Shown: positions 7,294-47,170 of the stretch, piece after piece
Numbering within the stretch: the stretch's first letter is position 1
Layout: each line of letters starts with the position of its first letter
Virus record (IMG/VR): IMGVR_UViG_3300044691_000566
Location: 64,001 to 128,000 of that record
DNA length: 64,000 bases
From: a virus
Strand: one strand, 5' to 3'
Notes under the pieces: model-generated
Databases searched by the model: none
Told to the model about the DNA's origin: nothing
What the model saw: the letters and a program-made list of their open reading frames with translations, nothing else
Translations under genes and position numbers: made by a program

Positions 7294-7398
7294 CACGAAG
7301 GCCCCCACCCGATATGGGTGGGGGCCTTCGTGTTGTTCCCCTGCCGTGCCCTGCCATGCCCAGCCTTGCCGCGCCGTGCCGAGGACTTGACTGTATCA
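7294..7398 (-). ncRNA. GGY-NN repeat small RNA unit A (orphan)
   Basis: minus strand TGATACAGTCAAGTCCTC + 8 GGC-NN (AC GC AA TG AT AG AC AG) + hairpin. Confidence 0.8.
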
Positions 7399-8550: not shown

Positions 8551-8649
8551 GACGAAGCCCCCTCCGGTGATCCGGAGGGGGCTTCTCCCTGCCATGCCCT
8601 GCGCTGCCATGCCGCGCCTCGCCATGCCGTGCAAGACCTGACTTTATCA
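8551..8649 (-). ncRNA. GGY-NN repeat small RNA unit B (orphan)
   Basis: TGATAAAGTCAGGTCT + 8 pentamers (AT GA GC AT AG AG AT AG; one CGC variant) + hairpin. Confidence 0.8.
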
Positions 8650-26270: not shown

Positions 26271-26379
26271 GACGAAGGGGGCGGCCGGAGCCGCCCCCTT
26301 CTCCCTGCCATGCCCAGCCATGCCGCGCCATGCCTCACCTTGCCGTGCCAGGCCATGCCCCGAGGACTTGACTATATCA
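26271..26379 (-). ncRNA. GGY-NN repeat small RNA unit C (orphan)
   Basis: TGATATAGTCAAGTCCTCGG + 11 pentamers (AT CT AC AA GA AT GC AT TG AT AG) + hairpin. Confidence 0.82.
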
Positions 26380-36031: not shown

Positions 36032-37021
36032 ATGACGACTCAGACTCTCGCCGCCACCTCGTCCCTGCGCGGCCGTATCGCGCGCAAGTCCGACGACTAC
36101 GCCAACGCCATCATGGAGCGCCGCAAGAGCAACGCGCCGCTCACCCATGAGGCCAAGGTCAAGAAGATGGCGTTGATCCTCTCCGACGAGACCAGCGGCA
36201 TCCGCCGCCTGGGCGTCGGGATGGTCGGCCCCATCCAGCTCAAGCTGCGCTACCAGGGCATCACCAGGAACGTGCTGGTGGAGGACCCGGTTACCCCGGG
36301 TACCCCCGTCGAGTACGACGTCTGGGATGATCTTGGTCAGGCGTACATCATGTCCGGCACCGAGGGCGAAGTCCGTGTGACTCCGTTCGAGGGCAAGCGC
36401 GTTCCGGTGCGGTTCTTCCGTATCGCCTCGCGCCCGGCCATCCGCAAGGAGGACCTGTTCTACCTGCGTATCAACGCAGTTGAGCAGGCCCAGGACGAGA
36501 CCAAGCAGGCCATCCTCAAGCAGGAGGACACCCGCCTGCTCGTCCTGCTCCAGGCGGCGCTGACCGACTACGCCACCCGGCCGGACCACACGGTCACCCC
36601 GAACCACAACATCACCGAGGCGTCGGGCTACCTGACGCCGGGCTCGCTGTACTCGGCCGTCGCCATGACGGACATGCACGAGTTGCAGAGTGCCAGGATC
36701 TTGATCAACCCGTTCGACTTCCGGGACCTCTACCGCTGGGACATCAACCAGACCGGCTGGGCGTTCAAGGACCGGGTCGTCGCGGGCGAGACGATCACCT
36801 CGTTCGGCGAGTTCCAGATCCAGCGGTCGATCATCGTGCCGCAGGGCAAGGTCTTCCTCACCCCGGAGCCCAACTTCTTGGGCGTTTTCCCCGTTTTGTA
36901 CTCCTTGGACGTCGAGGAGAACCACATGGTGGAGGCGTTCTGGAAGGGCTGGGTGTTCGACGAGATGGTGAACATGACCATTTTGAACGCAAGGGGAATT
37001 GCCACGATTACCAAGGCTTAG
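36032..37021 (+). CDS. major capsid protein
   Basis: 329 aa; PIQLKLRYQGITR...EGKRVPVRFFRIAS...AILKQED resembles Bxz1-type MCP; synteny. Confidence 0.8.
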   Translation: MTTQTLAATSSLRGRIARKSDDYANAIMERRKSNAPLTHEAKVKKMALILSDETSGIRRLGVGMVGPIQLKLRYQGITRNVLVEDPVTPGTPVEYDVWDDLGQAYIMSGTEGEVRVTPFEGKRVPVRFFRIASRPAIRKEDLFYLRINAVEQAQDETKQAILKQEDTRLLVLLQAALTDYATRPDHTVTPNHNITEASGYLTPGSLYSAVAMTDMHELQSARILINPFDFRDLYRWDINQTGWAFKDRVVAGETITSFGEFQIQRSIIVPQGKVFLTPEPNFLGVFPVLYSLDVEENHMVEAFWKGWVFDEMVNMTILNARGIATITKA

Positions 37022-37036: not shown

Positions 37037-37573
37037 TTAGCCCAAGTGGCCCCACCGGGCACCAGTGACGAGTCGGGAGATCGCGCCCTGGCCAACCCCG
37101 TAGACGGCGGCGAGAGCCCTCTGGCTTTCGCCGCCGTCGGCGTATCTGCGGCGTATCTCCAGAACCTGCCACTCCTCCAGCTTGGCGGCAGCGTTGCCTG
37201 ACCCTCGTGAAGAGGTGCCGTGCAGGATCTTGTCAGCTTCGTTCTCCCCAGAAGTGCCCCAGACGAGGTTCTCCTGCCGGTTGTCCGTAGAGTCACCGTT
37301 CAGGTGGCGCCCCTCCTGGCCCGGCTCCGGAAGACCCACAAAGGCCCCCAGGACGAGCTGGTGGACCAGGCGCTGGGCTCGGACACCGTCGATCGACATC
37401 ATGATGTTCAGGTAGCCCCCGCCGTGACGGCCGGGCTTGAGTATGCGGCCCTGGACGTAGTGCCGCCGGGTCTGGCGCGACAGACTGCGCACGCGGCCAA
37501 GCGACGACACCTCGTAGAACTCATCGAACTCCGGTATGGGGACCGGCTTCCACTCTTCAGTCATGCGAGGCAT
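37037..37573 (-). CDS. NUMOD4-HNH homing endonuclease
   Basis: EEWKPV...YEVSSLGRVRS, VHQLVLGAF, RHLNGDSTDNRQENLVWGT. Confidence 0.9.
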   Translation of the reverse strand: MPRMTEEWKPVPIPEFDEFYEVSSLGRVRSLSRQTRRHYVQGRILKPGRHGGGYLNIMMSIDGVRAQRLVHQLVLGAFVGLPEPGQEGRHLNGDSTDNRQENLVWGTSGENEADKILHGTSSRGSGNAAAKLEEWQVLEIRRRYADGGESQRALAAVYGVGQGAISRLVTGARWGHLG

Positions 37574-37609: not shown

Positions 37610-38182
37610 GAAGGCCCCCGGATTTAAAAATCCGGGGGCCGTTCCCCTGCCCAGCCATGCCACGCCCAGCCAAACCCCACCGTGCCGGGCCATACCATGA
37701 GGCCCTGACTCTATCATCTCCAACGACTGAGGGGCTCCCCGTAGGAAGCCCCTCCCATGCCTTGCCACGCCGAACCGGGCCCTGCCTTGCCCTGCCAGGG
37801 CATGCCAGGGCCTTGACCCTGTCATCTCCAATGGCACCTGTCAAACGACTGAGGGCGCCACCCCGAAGGATGACGCCCTCCCATGCCCCGCCTGGCCCTG
37901 CCAGACCTCGCCACGCCGAGCCTCGCCCAGCCCCGCAAGACCTGACTCTGTCATCCCTGCCCGCATCTGTCAAAGCTGAGGGCGATCACCCGTAGATGAT
38001 CGCCCTCCCATGCCCTGCCCGGCCAAGCCGAGCCGCGCCATGCCTAGCCCTGCAAGACCTGACTCTATCAGCCCCAATGACGAAGGGGCCCGAAGGACCC
38101 CTTCTCCCTGCCCTGCCCGGCCTAGCCCCACCGCGCCAGACCTTGCCCAGCCGTGCCTAGCCACGCGGCCCTGACTCTATCA
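37610..38182 (-). ncRNA. array of five GGY-NN repeat small RNA units (D1-D5)
   Basis: units 37610-37716, 37729-37824, 37851-37953, 37978-38070, 38082-38182; each -10 box + 8-11 pentamers + hairpin. Confidence 0.85.
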
Positions 38183-38494
38183 GGACTTCTCCGGCGTCGG
38201 CTTGGGCGTGTGGATGCCGGTCTTCCGGACCCACCCGGCCTCGAAATCCTCCACCTGGTCCTTCGTCCACATGCGGCCCATGCGCAGCACCCGCCAGGGC
38301 TGGCCCAGGCGCCCGGTGGCCAGCTCGTCGGCCCGCTGCTTGGTCACGCCCCAGCGGTCGGCCAGCTCGGCGAGCCCGAAGACCTGCATGTCCTCCAGGA
38401 GTTCCGCCACCCGCTGGAGGACCACGTCCTCGGCCTGCTCGCTCAGGTGGTCGTCGAAGGTGGGGGTACCCGGGAGTTCACGCTGATCGTTCAT
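38180..38494 (-). CDS. small HTH DNA-binding protein
   Basis: GLAELADRWGVTKQRADEL HTH; stop codon is the TGA of unit D5 promoter. Confidence 0.65.
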   Translation of the reverse strand: MNDQRELPGTPTFDDHLSEQAEDVVLQRVAELLEDMQVFGLAELADRWGVTKQRADELATGRLGQPWRVLRMGRMWTKDQVEDFEAGWVRKTGIHTPKPTPEKS

Positions 38495-38707
38495 ACGTCC
38501 AGTGGAACACATACGCCTTGACATCGTCTACCCCATCGTGCCACGCTCCATCTGCACGAGAGGGCCTTGCTCCGCCCCCACGGACCCCGGTCCGTGGCCC
38601 CTCGTCGCCGAAAGACCCCGGCTCGGACCCCCTGGCCGGGGTCTTTCCTGTTGGACCGGCAGCGACTCCGCGTAAGGGACGAGAACCCCTCACGAACGGA
38701 GACCCCC

Positions 38708-42688: not shown

Positions 42689-42815
42689 AACCGGACATTA
42701 CGGCCATGATAGGGTCAGGTCCTGCAAGGCACGGCAGGGCTAGGCGAGGTCTGGCAGGGTACGGCTGGGCACGGCAGGGGGAGGGCGATCACCTACGGGT
42801 GGTCGCCCTCCGTTG

Positions 42816-42931
42816 TTGACAGATCCAGTAGGACATGACAGAGTCAAGTCGTCCTCATTCACCTGGGGCGGGCGTCGGTCGATCCGTGGTGCTCCCTTTC
42901 GCAACAAGGGCACGGATTGACCGACGTCTTT
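42816..42931 (+). ncRNA. putative non-repeat structured sRNA driven by the same promoter type
   Basis: TTGACA-N17-CAGAGT then 18-bp stem 42871-42888/42911-42928. Confidence 0.45.
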
Positions 42932-43090
42932 GTACTCCCGTCGGTAACCCTGATAGAGTCAAGTCCTCGGCACGGCTAGGTAGGGCAGGGTTTGGTAGGG
43001 CAGGGAGAAGGGGTCCTCTACGGAGGACCCCTTCGTTTTGCCCCCGCAGGCCCGGTAGAGTCCGGCCTCCACCGTCAGAGAGGACCCTCA

Positions 43091-43300
43091 ATGCCCGACA
43101 GCGAGATCATCAGGGACTGGTACACCTCCAGCGCCTGCGGGGCGAACAACTCCTGCCTGGAGGCCCGCACTTACGCCGACGGGTCGGTCGAGATCCGCAA
43201 CTCCCAGGACCCGAAGGGCACCCTCCTCCGGTTCACCGAGGACGAATGGTCCGCCTTCCTCGTGGGCGCCCGCGCCGGGGAGTTTTCCACCGGGGCATGA
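43091..43300 (+). CDS. DUF397 family protein
   Basis: WYTSSAC..NSCLEA...VEIRNSQDP..LRFT..EWSAFL.G...GEF. Confidence 0.85.
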   Translation: MPDSEIIRDWYTSSACGANNSCLEARTYADGSVEIRNSQDPKGTLLRFTEDEWSAFLVGARAGEFSTGA

Positions 43301-43402
43301 CCTGATAGAGTCAAGTCCTCGGCTAGGCATGGCGGGGCTCGGCTTGGCACGGCAGGGAGAAGGGGTCCACTACGGTGGACCCCTTCGTCGTTGGGAGGAC
43401 GG

Positions 43403-43582
43403 ATGCGCATCGGTCAGGAGCCGCCCCGGCGGGAGAAGCTGCGGGGCTACGTGATCACCGGCTGCATCAAGTGCGGCGGCCGGTCCAAGTGGATCCGGCG
43501 TGGACCGCACGACTGCTGCTTGCGCAAGGACATGAGCCGGGCCCGGGAGAAGCAGGAATGGCGCCGGACCCTCAGGGATTGA
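43403..43582 (+). CDS. small basic Cys-containing protein
   Basis: GGAGG RBS; CIKC; stop overlaps unit E4 promoter. Confidence 0.5.
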   Translation: MRIGQEPPRREKLRGYVITGCIKCGGRSKWIRRGPHDCCLRKDMSRAREKQEWRRTLRD

Positions 43583-43928
43583 TAGAGTCAAGTCCCTGGC
43601 AAGGCTGGCCAAGGCCCGGTAGGGCACGGCTTGGCCCGGCAGGGCAGGGAGAAGAGCCCCACTACGGTGGGGCTCTTCGTCGTTGACGGACCCCGCAGTT
43701 CATGACAGAGTCAAGTCCTGCATGGCCGGGCGGGACGTGGCGCGGTGTGGCATGGCTAGGTAGGGCCGGGCAGGGCATGGGCTGTGGAGATGGGGCCTCT
43801 TTCGGGAGGCCCCATCGTCTTGATAGAGTCAAGTCCCTGGCTGGGCTTGGTATGGCTGGGCTTGGCGTGGTGAGGCATGGCAGGGGGAGAGGGCCCGGAT
43901 TTTTAAATCCGGGCCCTCCGCCATATGG

Positions 43929-43958
43929 TTGACACTCCAGGAATCCTTGGAGTACAGT
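43929..43958 (+). promoter_or_regulatory. sigma70-type promoter of RAMP-like gene
   Basis: TTGACA-N18-TACAGT. Confidence 0.7.
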
Positions 43959-43996
43959 CACCTTCGCCAGAGAACGCCGAGCCCCAGGGAGGGCCC

Positions 43997-44575
43997 ATGC
44001 AGGTCCGTTTGACTCTTACCGGAACCACATCGCTGCTCATGCACAACGCGCGGCTGTCCGACCCGTTGGACCCCTACACCAAGATGCTCAAGGCCATCTC
44101 CTCCAAGCGCACCAAGACGGAGGACGACCACGACGACATGGCGCGCGTCGAATTCCTCGGCGGCCTGTACTTCGACCCGGAGGCCGGGCCGTACGTTCCC
44201 GGCGTCAACGTCCACCGCTGCCTGGTGGAGGGCGCCAAGCTCAACAAGCTGGGCCGCCACGTGGAGCGCGGCATCATCGCCCTGGACGAGATCTGCCCGC
44301 TGGGCTACGCGGGGCCGCGCACGGAGGAGGCGCTGTGGAAGGACAAAAACTTCGTCTCCCGGCTGTCCGTCGGCGTCACCACCTCGCGCGTCATGCGCAC
44401 GCGCCCCGAATTCCCGGTGTGGGGCCTGGAGGCCGACATGCTGGTGGACACCGGCCAGCTCGACCTGGAGCAGGTCCGCACCATCGCCGAGAAGTCCGGA
44501 CAGATGATCGGTCTCGGCGACTACCGTCCCCGGTTCGGGCGATTCACCGTCGAGGTCGTCGAACTCCAGGGCTGA
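43997..44575 (+). CDS. RAMP/Cas7-like RRM protein, putative effector of the GGY-NN RNAs
   Basis: N-terminal strand LTLTGTTSLLMHN, PYVPGVNVHRCL (cf. RAMP IPGSxxKG), C-terminal G-rich loop GLGDYRPRFGRF. Confidence 0.7.
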   Translation: MQVRLTLTGTTSLLMHNARLSDPLDPYTKMLKAISSKRTKTEDDHDDMARVEFLGGLYFDPEAGPYVPGVNVHRCLVEGAKLNKLGRHVERGIIALDEICPLGYAGPRTEEALWKDKNFVSRLSVGVTTSRVMRTRPEFPVWGLEADMLVDTGQLDLEQVRTIAEKSGQMIGLGDYRPRFGRFTVEVVELQG

Positions 44576-44614
44576 TCCCGCCAGAATCTGTACCACCGAA
44601 CAGAAGGAGGACGA

Positions 44615-45178
44615 ATGGCCGCCAAGCCGTTCGAGCCCAAGGGCGATGTCGCCCGCTGGGTCCCCGTCTACGAGAATCTGCGCGACCTGGAGCCGGGGGT
44701 GCTGGTCACGTACGAGCAGCTCTCGGAGTGGGCCGGAGTCGATGTCCGGCGCGACCGCAGCCCCCTCGTGCAGGCCGAGGACAAGCTCCTGAAGGAGCAC
44801 GGGCGCGGCGTCGCCAACGAGCGGGGCGTGGGGTACCGGATCATGCTGGCCTCCGAACACGGTGAGGCCGCCCGGCGCCAGACCCGGAAGGCCGACCGCC
44901 GGATCAGGAAGGCCATAACCCTTCTGACCGTGGCCGACCGCAATCACCTGACCCCGCAGCAGCGGCAGAAGTACGAGAGTCAGGCCGGGGCTCTCCAGGC
45001 CGTCCGGGACATGACCAACCGCCTGGCGCGGCGGACGGCCGCGCTGGAGGAGGGTCTGAAAGCGGTCCGTCGGGAGACCAAGGAGACCACGGCCGGTCTG
45101 TCCGACCGCTTGGAGCGGCTGGAGGCCCGGTTCGCGAACGTTCCGGGCGATGCCCCGGCGGACAGCACCACGACCTGA
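44615..45178 (+). CDS. winged-HTH-like + coiled-coil protein co-transcribed with RAMP-like gene
   Basis: VTYEQLSEWAG...NERGVGYRI; long amphipathic helix. Confidence 0.6.
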   Translation: MAAKPFEPKGDVARWVPVYENLRDLEPGVLVTYEQLSEWAGVDVRRDRSPLVQAEDKLLKEHGRGVANERGVGYRIMLASEHGEAARRQTRKADRRIRKAITLLTVADRNHLTPQQRQKYESQAGALQAVRDMTNRLARRTAALEEGLKAVRRETKETTAGLSDRLERLEARFANVPGDAPADSTTT

Positions 45179-47084: not shown

Positions 47085-47170
47085 TGATAGAGTCAGGGCC
47101 TCGGTATGGCTGGGCCGGGCTCGGCTGGTCGGGGCATGGCAGGGGAGGCCCCCACTTCGGTGGGGGCCTC
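47085..47170 (+). ncRNA. GGY-NN repeat small RNA unit F (orphan)
   Basis: TGATAGAGTCAGGGCCTC + 8 pentamers (AT TG CG TC TG GG AT AG; one GTC variant) + hairpin. Confidence 0.8.

What the first reader, a model, noticed from the sequence alone, without database searches (positions are those of the whole stretch)
37610..38182. Second, antisense array of five units between MCP/HNH and an HTH gene
Seen: five tandem units on the minus strand, about 5.8 kb from the RAMP-like gene. They are bounded by a NUMOD4-HNH gene and a small HTH gene whose stop codon is the TGA of the first promoter. Inference: a trans-acting guide reservoir. The HTH protein could regulate it, and the HNH may mobilise the cassette.
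Basis: partly seen in the sequence, partly recalled or inferred. Interest (0 to 1): 0.75.

Follow-up and report, generated by a model that had tools for sequence, protein, structure and literature searches.

The report
Second VIPR guide-RNA array in actinophage
The five repeats are real and are a second set of guide-RNA genes for the phage's VIPR system (a CRISPR-related, RNA-guided DNA silencer first described in 2026). One guide spells a conserved motif of the Ro60 RNA-quality-control gene found in Streptomyces chromosomes and in other actinobacterial viral or proviral contigs.

Summary
Window 37610-38182, minus strand, holds five tandem units. Each has a TGAYAGRGTCA promoter-like box, 8-12 in-phase GGY-NN pentamers and a 10-13 bp GC hairpin.

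These are vrRNA genes of a VIPR system (bioRxiv 10.64898/2026.04.26.720920). The only vipr gene of this 160-kb phage (43925-44575) matches the solved SUSP1 Vipr at E 6e-40. The genome carries 20 such units at 11 places, all with different guides. This scan had already called the main locus (42707-45178) VIPR. VIPR arrays have been noted many times on other DNA.

- **New lead:** read by the published one-base-skip rule, guide U1 matches 18/18 informative bases of the in-frame motif YTWNLAGYR in the Ro60/TROVE gene. It hits 131 of 401 sampled Streptomyces genomes (reversed control: 2) and 18 viral contigs, all in Ro60 homologues.
- **Other guides:** U5 has only a weak candidate, a DNA methylase motif. 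No target was found for U2-U4.
- **Neighbouring genes:** the HNH and HTH genes occur in relatives independently of the array. The "HTH regulates, HNH mobilises" ideas are not supported.
- **Not shown:** expression and binding are untested.

Verdict: a new member of a known kind, with one interesting target lead.

The parts
38081..38182 (-). Unit U1. Promoter-like box at 38182-38172. Eleven GGY-NN units at 38162-38108 with guide TA AC TG AA CT GC GG TA CG (AG AG = scaffold). Tail hairpin at 38104-38082.
   Evidence: The guide matches the Ro60/TROVE motif YTWNLAGYR.
37967..38070 (-). Unit U2. Box at 38070-38060. Guide TA AT GC TC TT CG AG (AT). Tail hairpin at 38007-37978.
   Evidence: No convergent target was found.
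37849..37953 (-). Unit U3. TTGACA lies 17 bp upstream of CAGAGT; box at 37953-37943. Guide TG GA TC GT GA CT AG CA GG (AT). Tail hairpin at 37880-37851.
   Evidence: No target was found. The tail is homologous to a unit in relative L018 that carries a different guide.
37729..37824 (-). Unit U4. TTGACA lies 17 bp upstream of CAGGGT; box at 37824-37814. Eight units with guide AG AA AG CC TC GT AA (AT). Tail hairpin at 37754-37729.
   Evidence: No target was found in 81 Streptomyces genomes.
37610..37716 (-). Unit U5. Box at 37716-37706. Guide AT CC AC GG TT TG GT AT TG (AG). Tail hairpin at 37640-37613 followed by a T-rich run; this is the only unit called terminator-like by the scan.
   Evidence: Weak candidate target: a DNA methylase motif, 17/18 bases.
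37037..37573 (-). Free-standing NUMOD4-HNH homing-endonuclease gene, downstream neighbour of the array. It is probably an independent insertion behind the capsid gene.
   Evidence: Pfam NUMOD4 1e-13 and HNH_3 3e-7; PHROG HNH families. Homologues occur in relatives without arrays.
38180..38524 (-). A 114-aa MerR/excisionase-like winged-HTH gene, upstream neighbour. Its stop codon overlaps the U1 box.
   Evidence: The gene is syntenic in 11 relatives, 8 of them without an array.
43925..44575 (+). vipr, the only copy in the genome. It encodes the protein that would use these guides in trans.
   Evidence: phmmer against PDB 36pp_D 'SUSP1 Vipr protein' gives E 6.1e-40 over residues 28-212. The GGY-binding residues H17, R138, D177 and R179 are kept, and W178 is replaced by Y. 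Single copy by tblastn.
44615..45178 (+). A 187-aa gene directly after vipr, in the position of the vap accessory gene.
   Evidence: Position only; PHROG 5926 of unknown function. The gene after vipr in Gordonia phage MakoManhole is annotated as a DNA binding protein. Homology to vap1 was not tested.
42707..43900 (+). Main vrRNA array: six units upstream of vipr with the same box and tail types.
36032..37021 (+). Major capsid gene. The variable slot that holds the HNH gene and the array begins at its 3' end.
   Evidence: PHROG 2522 at 6e-102; synteny in 80 relatives.

Best explanation
The region is a second array of five independently transcribed vrRNA genes of the phage's type-II-like VIPR system. 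In each unit an extended -10 promoter (TGnTAGAGT) would drive an RNA of about 85-100 nt. The RNA consists of a short leader, 7-10 guide pentamers (GGY scaffold, NN guide), one or two invariant scaffold pentamers (GGCAG or GGCAT) and a GC hairpin that ends and probably stabilises it. The Vipr protein made 5.7 kb away would polymerise on the GGY motifs and present the NN pairs. The complex would then bind double-stranded DNA that matches NN-x-NN-x and block transcription. This mechanism is taken from the SUSP1 work and is inferred here. Guide U1 is aimed at the conserved codons YTWNLAGYR near the 3' end of the Ro60/TROVE (Rsr-like) gene, which is carried by about half of the sampled Streptomyces chromosomes and by other actinobacterial viral or proviral contigs. 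The targets of U2-U5 are unknown; U5 may aim at a DNA methylase. The array sits in a fast-changing slot behind the capsid gene, and the HNH and HTH genes are unrelated neighbours.
For: - **Protein:** the vipr homologue matches the solved SUSP1 Vipr at E 6e-40 with the G-binding residues conserved, and it is single copy.
- **RNA genes:** 51 pentamers have invariant GG, Y at position 3 in 49 of 51, and about 1.9 bits of entropy at each NN position. There are 20 distinct guides in 20 units. Every unit has a stable hairpin with a different stem sequence. The caller finds 21 runs against 0-1 in null genomes.
- **Definition in print:** the architecture fits the published one.
- **No self-target:** no guide scores above the shuffled-guide null on the phage's own genome, as published for VIPR.
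- **Guide turnover:** relatives have 0, 1, 3 or 5 units in this slot. A homologous tail in L018 carries a different guide. L014 has vipr-vap plus three vrRNAs inverted in the same slot.
- **U1 target in Streptomyces:** 131 of 401 genomes match with up to 3 mismatches, against 2 for the reversed control. The site is in frame with skips at wobble positions.
- **U1 target, unbiased sample:** of 30 TROVE loci, 24 match 18/18 and 4 match 17/18.
- **U1 target in viral contigs:** 18 contigs match exactly and all 18 lie inside Ro60 homologues. The equally long cores of U3 and U5 gave 0 and 1 hits.
Against: There are no expression data: no RNA run holds this DNA, so transcripts, their ends and Vipr binding are all inferred. 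The generic sigma-70 scan calls no promoter here, so the promoter assignment rests on the conserved position of a TGnTAGAGT box. The tail is a plain hairpin, not the pseudoknot described for the SUSP1 clade. Four of the five guides have no convincing target. The U1 site lies 49 codons before the stop, whereas published silencing assays used promoter-proximal sites. The last two U1 units do not match the target in most genomes. The natural host of this metagenomic phage is not known independently.
Confidence: 0.8

Rival explanations
1. The array does encode vrRNAs, but U1 is aimed at Ro-like genes carried by competing actinophages or proviruses, not at the host chromosome. The host copies match only because the motif is conserved across the family.
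For: Published VIPR targets are competing mobile elements. All 18 exact hits in viral contigs are Ro60 homologues. Many isolated Streptomyces, Gordonia and Arthrobacter phages carry a Ro-like gene. GiJojo matches 17/18.
Against: The isolated phages checked match worse than the chromosomal genes: BRock 15/18, Kela 13/18, Satis 11/18, against 18/18 in 24 of 30 Streptomyces loci. The chromosomal gene lies in a neighbourhood that is conserved on one side across species. Some IMG/VR hits may be proviral calls that include host DNA.
Confidence: 0.3
2. Some or all of the five units are non-targeting or decoy vrRNAs, or decaying duplicates of units from the main array. Such units would only load or titrate Vipr, or serve mainly as promoter and terminator punctuation between the HTH operon and the HNH gene.
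For: No target was found for U2-U4. Decoy-directed solo vrRNAs are documented in satellites. U4 has an out-of-phase 5' stretch. Tail types are shared with the main array.
Against: GGY is perfectly kept in all 51 pentamers and every guide is unique, which argues for selection on function. U1 has a strongly non-random target. The target search covered only one bacterial genus plus exact matches in the other collections, so missing targets are expected.
Confidence: 0.15
3. The 5-base rhythm acts at the DNA or RNA level without Vipr. Examples would be G-quadruplex-forming RNAs, or binding sites for another oligomeric protein in the manner of TRAP.
For: GG every five bases could form two-tetrad G4s. 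This was my first idea before the VIPR lead.
Against: A bona fide Vipr homologue with conserved GGY-binding residues lies in the same genome. The Y at position 3 and the hypervariable NN fit Vipr recognition exactly. The one-skip decoding yields an in-frame, wobble-aligned target.
Confidence: 0.03

Closest known systems
Type II VIPR of Escherichia phage SUSP1 and the Pseudomonas fulva prophage (bioRxiv 10.64898/2026.04.26.720920 and .720927)
   Same: A homologous Vipr protein (39% identity, E 6e-40). RNA genes of about 100 nt made of 9-16 GGY-NN repeats followed by a conserved 3' tail. vrRNAs lie on both sides of vipr. A second small gene follows vipr. No self-targeting. The predicted target is in frame with skipped bases at wobble positions.
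   Different: - The host group is high-GC Actinobacteria.
- There are 20 vrRNAs at 11 places in the genome, not 4 at one locus.
- This array lies 5.7 kb from vipr on the other strand.
- Each unit has its own promoter-like box.
- The tail is a plain hairpin rather than a pseudoknot.
- The one decoded target is a Ro60/TROVE gene present in host chromosomes, not a satellite or a prophage regulator.
Solo or orphan vrRNAs of F5 satellites and of VIPR-null SUSP1-like phages (bioRxiv 10.64898/2026.10.15.759431)
   Same: vrRNA genes located away from any vipr gene and acting in trans. Some are directed at host-genome sequences.
   Different: Those elements lack vipr and borrow another element's protein, and their host-directed guides hit repetitive decoy sites. 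Here the phage has its own vipr, and the guide hits a single-copy conserved coding motif.
Phage-borne CRISPR mini-arrays and class 1 crRNAs
   Same: An array of short guide genes read by a RAMP-fold protein, with a variable part capped by a constant handle.
   Different: There are no repeat-spacer units, no contiguous spacer and no cas genes. The guide is noncontiguous (2 of every 5 RNA bases, 2 of every 3 DNA bases). Each unit is probably its own transcript.
vrRNA arrays of Gordonia phage MakoManhole and Mycobacterium phage LittleE (Vipr 56% and 47% identical)
   Same: Closest Vipr proteins among isolated phages. GGY-NN runs flank vipr.
   Different: There the runs are separated by tRNA T-arm-like GGTTCGAnTCC elements, not by promoter boxes and terminator hairpins.

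Membership tests
VIPR system (Vipr + vrRNA) | A Vipr protein: a minimal RAMP with an RRM core, G-loop and thumb | tested here: met
   Window 43925-44575 against PDB 36pp_D 'SUSP1 Vipr protein' gives E 6.1e-40 over 185 residues. H17, R138, D177 and R179 are conserved and W178 is Y.
VIPR system (Vipr + vrRNA) | vrRNA genes: at least 4 (typically 9-16) tandem GGY-NN pentamers with conserved GGY and hypervariable NN | tested here: met
   The five units have 8-12 pentamers each. Entropy at positions 1 to 5 is 0, 0, 0.81, 1.91 and 1.94 bits. The genome has 21 runs against 0-1 in null genomes.
VIPR system (Vipr + vrRNA) | A constant structured 3' tail after the repeat tract (a pseudoknot in the SUSP1 clade) | tested here: inconclusive
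   All 20 units end in a GGCAG or GGCAT scaffold unit plus a 10-17 bp hairpin whose stem sequence varies. No pseudoknot was looked for beyond minimum-free-energy folding, and none is evident.
VIPR system (Vipr + vrRNA) | Targets obey the one-base-skip rule, mostly in frame with the skip at the wobble position | tested here: met
   This holds for U1 only: 18/18 core bases on YTWNLAGYR codons, with variation confined to third positions. No target was found for U2-U4, and U5 has only a weak candidate.
VIPR system (Vipr + vrRNA) | No self-targeting by the element's own guides | tested here: met
   The best self scores of all 20 guides do not exceed the shuffled-guide maxima.
VIPR system (Vipr + vrRNA) | A vap accessory gene next to vipr (vap1 in type II) | not tested
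   A 187-aa gene follows vipr, and it matches only PHROG 5926 of unknown function. No vap1 sequence was available for comparison.
VIPR system (Vipr + vrRNA) | vrRNAs are expressed and co-purify with Vipr, and the complex represses the target | not testable with these tools
   Needs small-RNA sequencing, a pull-down and a reporter assay.
CRISPR array | Identical direct repeats of 23-50 bp alternating with unique contiguous spacers | tested here: not met
   Tandem Repeats Finder reports only 10-bp-period fragments here. The units share only the box, the GGY scaffold and the hairpin type.

The most novel reading that the evidence does not exclude
A lytic actinophage uses one guide of a dispersed VIPR guide set to silence Ro60 (Rsr-like), a chromosomal RNA-quality-control gene of its Streptomyces host. 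A possible purpose is to protect its many structured non-coding RNAs (vrRNAs and the tRNA-like RNAs noted elsewhere in this genome) from Ro60-dependent decay. That would extend VIPR from warfare between mobile elements to programmable repression of a host housekeeping or surveillance gene.
Probability: 0.3. Interest if true: 0.75.

Novelty: new member of a known kind. Interest (0 to 1): 0.55.

Why it matters
VIPR was described only in 2026, and its published natural targets are satellites, prophage regulators and rival VIPR loci in Proteobacteria. This phage shows that one vipr gene can serve twenty separately promoted guides scattered over a 160-kb actinophage genome. It also shows that arrays come and go in a hot spot behind the capsid gene. 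It gives a statistically strong, directly testable prediction that a guide is tuned to an invariant Ro60 motif, reading only the two amino-acid-determining bases of each codon. If confirmed, it would link an RNA-guided silencer to RNA surveillance and would point to Streptomyces as the likely host of an uncultured phage.

Tried and rejected
- **Rfam and tRNA scans:** an Rfam gathering scan and a tRNA scan of the window found nothing.
- **First ideas:** a TRAP-like protein sponge or G-quadruplex RNA were dropped once Vipr was verified.
- **Targets in the phage itself and in relatives:** none above the nulls in the phage's own genome or in 1 Mb of relatives' capsid regions.
- **U1 with ten units:** no viral hit. 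Dropping the scaffold unit gave 18 hits.
- **U3:** no hit in viral contigs with 10 or 9 units, none in metagenome contigs, and 1 of 121 Streptomyces genomes at 2 mismatches, which is chance level. A 17/22 match inside the TROVE gene is out of frame and was judged chance.
- **U5:** 17/18 in a PF01555 DNA methylase (HITQKPVEI) in 4 of 101 genomes, with the control at 0 and about 1 expected. There was one exact hit in a low-GC viral contig and none in metagenomes.
- **U2 and U4:** 0 of 81 Streptomyces genomes each. The six viral hits for U2 are scattered, low-GC and non-convergent.
- **Solo guide at 26305:** 0 of 41 genomes.
- **Other guides at the TROVE locus:** none of the other 19 guides hits the 12 TROVE neighbourhoods.
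- **Y RNA:** no Rfam family, Y RNA included, was found near the Streptomyces TROVE gene. The gene has no PADLOC or NCBIfam hit.
- **HTH protein:** no Pfam hit, no homologue by word search, no profile hit in the PDB, and a poor single-sequence model.
- **Expression:** no RNA holder was listed for this DNA.

Full report
**What is there**

The window is bases 64001-128000 of a complete 159,746-bp IMG/VR phage genome with terminal repeats and 67% G+C. Its capsid gene is nearest to that of Rhodococcus phage E3 among deposited phages.

Read on the minus strand, 38182-37610 holds five head-to-tail units. Each begins with TGAYAGRGTCA. In the window this box occurs 20 times with up to 2 mismatches, against 5.6 +/- 2.3 in shuffles. 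A short leader follows, then 8-12 pentamers in one register that all start with GG and a pyrimidine, then GGGAGG or GGAGAAG and a perfect 10-13 bp hairpin.

The generic sigma-70 scan finds no promoter here, and it calls only the last hairpin terminator-like. I read the box as an extended -10 element, TGnTAGAGT. Units 3 and 4 also have TTGACA exactly 17 bp upstream. This promoter reading is an inference from sequence and from the box's fixed position in front of every unit.

A caller modelled on the published one finds 21 runs of at least six units in the genome, against 0-1 in Markov surrogates. Twenty of these runs carry the box and a hairpin: this array, six units at 42713-43883 and nine solitary units.

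**What it is**

Three 2026 preprints describe VIPR as a phage-borne system. It consists of a minimal RAMP protein (Vipr) and roughly 100-nt vrRNAs built from 9-16 GGY-NN repeats plus a constant tail. The NN pairs read double-stranded DNA while skipping every third base, and binding silences transcription.

The 216-aa product of 43925-44575 matches the solved SUSP1 Vipr chain at E 6.1e-40. The residues that hold the two guanines and the pyrimidine are kept: H17, R138, D177 and R179, with W178 changed to Y. It is the only copy in the genome.

In the five units, positions 1-2 of the pentamer are invariant, position 3 is C or T in 49 of 51 cases, and positions 4-5 carry about 1.9 bits each. All 20 guides differ. 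No guide matches the phage itself above a shuffled-guide null.

So the finding is a second vrRNA array that must work in trans with the distant vipr. The closest Vipr proteins in isolated phages are from Gordonia and Mycobacterium phages. Their repeat runs are separated by tRNA T-arm-like elements instead.

**Neighbours and evolution**

Eighty relatives were fetched through the capsid protein. The capsid gene and a block starting near window 38600 are syntenic, while the slot between them varies.

- **HTH gene:** an HTH homologue (41-52% identity) follows the capsid gene in eleven relatives. Eight of these have no array, two have one unit and one has three.
- **HNH gene:** HNH homologues (46-56% identity) occupy the slot in five other relatives that have neither array nor HTH.
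- **Whole module in the slot:** one relative (L014) carries vipr, its partner gene and three vrRNAs, inverted, directly behind the capsid gene.
- **Other array types:** two relatives have staggered arrays without per-unit promoters.
- **Guide turnover:** a unit in L018 has a tail nearly identical to that of U3 but a different guide.

The slot is therefore a hot spot where guides turn over. The HNH gene (NUMOD4 + HNH_3) and the HTH gene are independent neighbours. The HTH protein models as a MerR/excisionase-like winged helix, with core pLDDT about 90. Its best matches are BldC, MerR regulators and RdfS, with weak E-values.

**Targets**

I used the published rule: concatenate the NN pairs with one wildcard between them and search both strands.

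*U1.* Ten units of U1 matched exactly in Streptomyces sp. ASQP_92, and in one Actinobacillus genome that I regard as chance. The Streptomyces site lies in frame in a 555-aa TROVE-domain ORF, which is homologous to a solved Ro60-type protein.

- In a genus sample, 131 of 401 genomes matched with up to 3 mismatches, against 2 for the reversed pattern. All hits read TAC ACC TGG AAC CTS GCS GGN TAC CGS.
- In an unbiased sample, 31 of 61 genomes have the gene. Of 30 loci, 24 match 18/18 and 4 match 17/18 of the first nine units. Differences are confined to third codon positions.
- The last two U1 units (AG AG) are the scaffold shared by most units and usually do not match.
- The nine-unit core also matches 18 viral contigs exactly, and every hit is inside a Ro60 homologue. 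The equally long cores of U3 and U5 gave 0 and 1 hits.
- The phage has no Ro60 gene of its own.
- Isolated Streptomyces phages with Ro-like genes match less well, from 11 to 17 of 18.
- The chromosomal gene keeps a conserved flank across species.

I conclude that U1 is tuned to this Ro60 motif. Whether the relevant copy is the host's or a rival element's remains open.

*U5.* It has a 17/18 in-frame match to HITQKPVEI of a PF01555 methylase in 4 of 101 genomes. This is near chance level and no exact match was found elsewhere.

*U2-U4.* No convergent target was found.

**Limits**

Transcription, RNA ends, Vipr binding and silencing are all inferred. No RNA data set holds this DNA. The U1 site lies 49 codons before the stop, where a transcriptional roadblock would truncate the message rather than prevent it. 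Target searches covered one genus with mismatches and allowed only exact matches elsewhere.

**Verdict**

The system is a new member of a kind described in 2026 and noted many times in this scan, including at this genome's main locus. The Ro60 target of U1 and the dispersed, separately promoted guide set are the points worth following up.

Noticed in passing
window 7341-7398(-), 8589-8649(-), 26305-26379(-), 47085-47142(+); genome 56013(+), 142659-142714(-), 143799-143867(-), 144365-144432(-), 149170-149234(+): There are nine solitary vrRNA units, each with the same promoter box and a hairpin tail, scattered through the 160-kb genome far from vipr. A VIPR-positive phage with this many dispersed solo guides is not described in the main texts I read.
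   Followed up: partly
G000:C1 29110, 41283, 42504, 45338, 47562, 49015, 50379 (before the window): A second conserved promoter class, TTGACGCTCCAACAATCCTTGnAGTAGTCT, is followed by TGACTCTGTCA and a GGAGG leader. It shares the half-palindrome TGAC-NNN-GTCA with the vrRNA box.
   Followed up: no
L177 1650-3100 (Gordonia phage MakoManhole); L178 2600-4450 (Mycobacterium phage LittleE): In these isolated actinophages the GGY-NN runs around vipr are separated by tRNA T-arm-like GGTTCGAnTCC elements. This suggests vrRNA arrays processed by tRNA-maturation enzymes.
   Followed up: no
L030 11066-11439 and L032 11056-11251 (minus strand): Relatives carry contiguous 'staggered' vrRNA arrays behind the capsid gene: units joined by GGCAG with a one-base register slip, and one terminal hairpin. 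This is a different array architecture in the same slot.
   Followed up: no
L014 3912-5267: In this relative the whole VIPR module (three vrRNAs, the partner gene at 49% identity and vipr at 73% identity) lies inverted directly after the capsid gene, so the module moves between sites within this phage group.
   Followed up: partly
window 42836-42950(+): A vrRNA-type promoter box (TGACAGAGTCA with TTGACA upstream) is followed by about 100 bases that are not pentameric. This may be a different small RNA or a small ORF inside the main array.
   Followed up: no
L106 8499-10166 and flanks (Streptomyces sp. ASQP_92): The Streptomyces Ro60/TROVE gene lies next to a beta-ketoacyl synthase and near a TerD-domain gene. 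No Rfam family, Y RNA included, was detected within 20 kb.
   Followed up: partly
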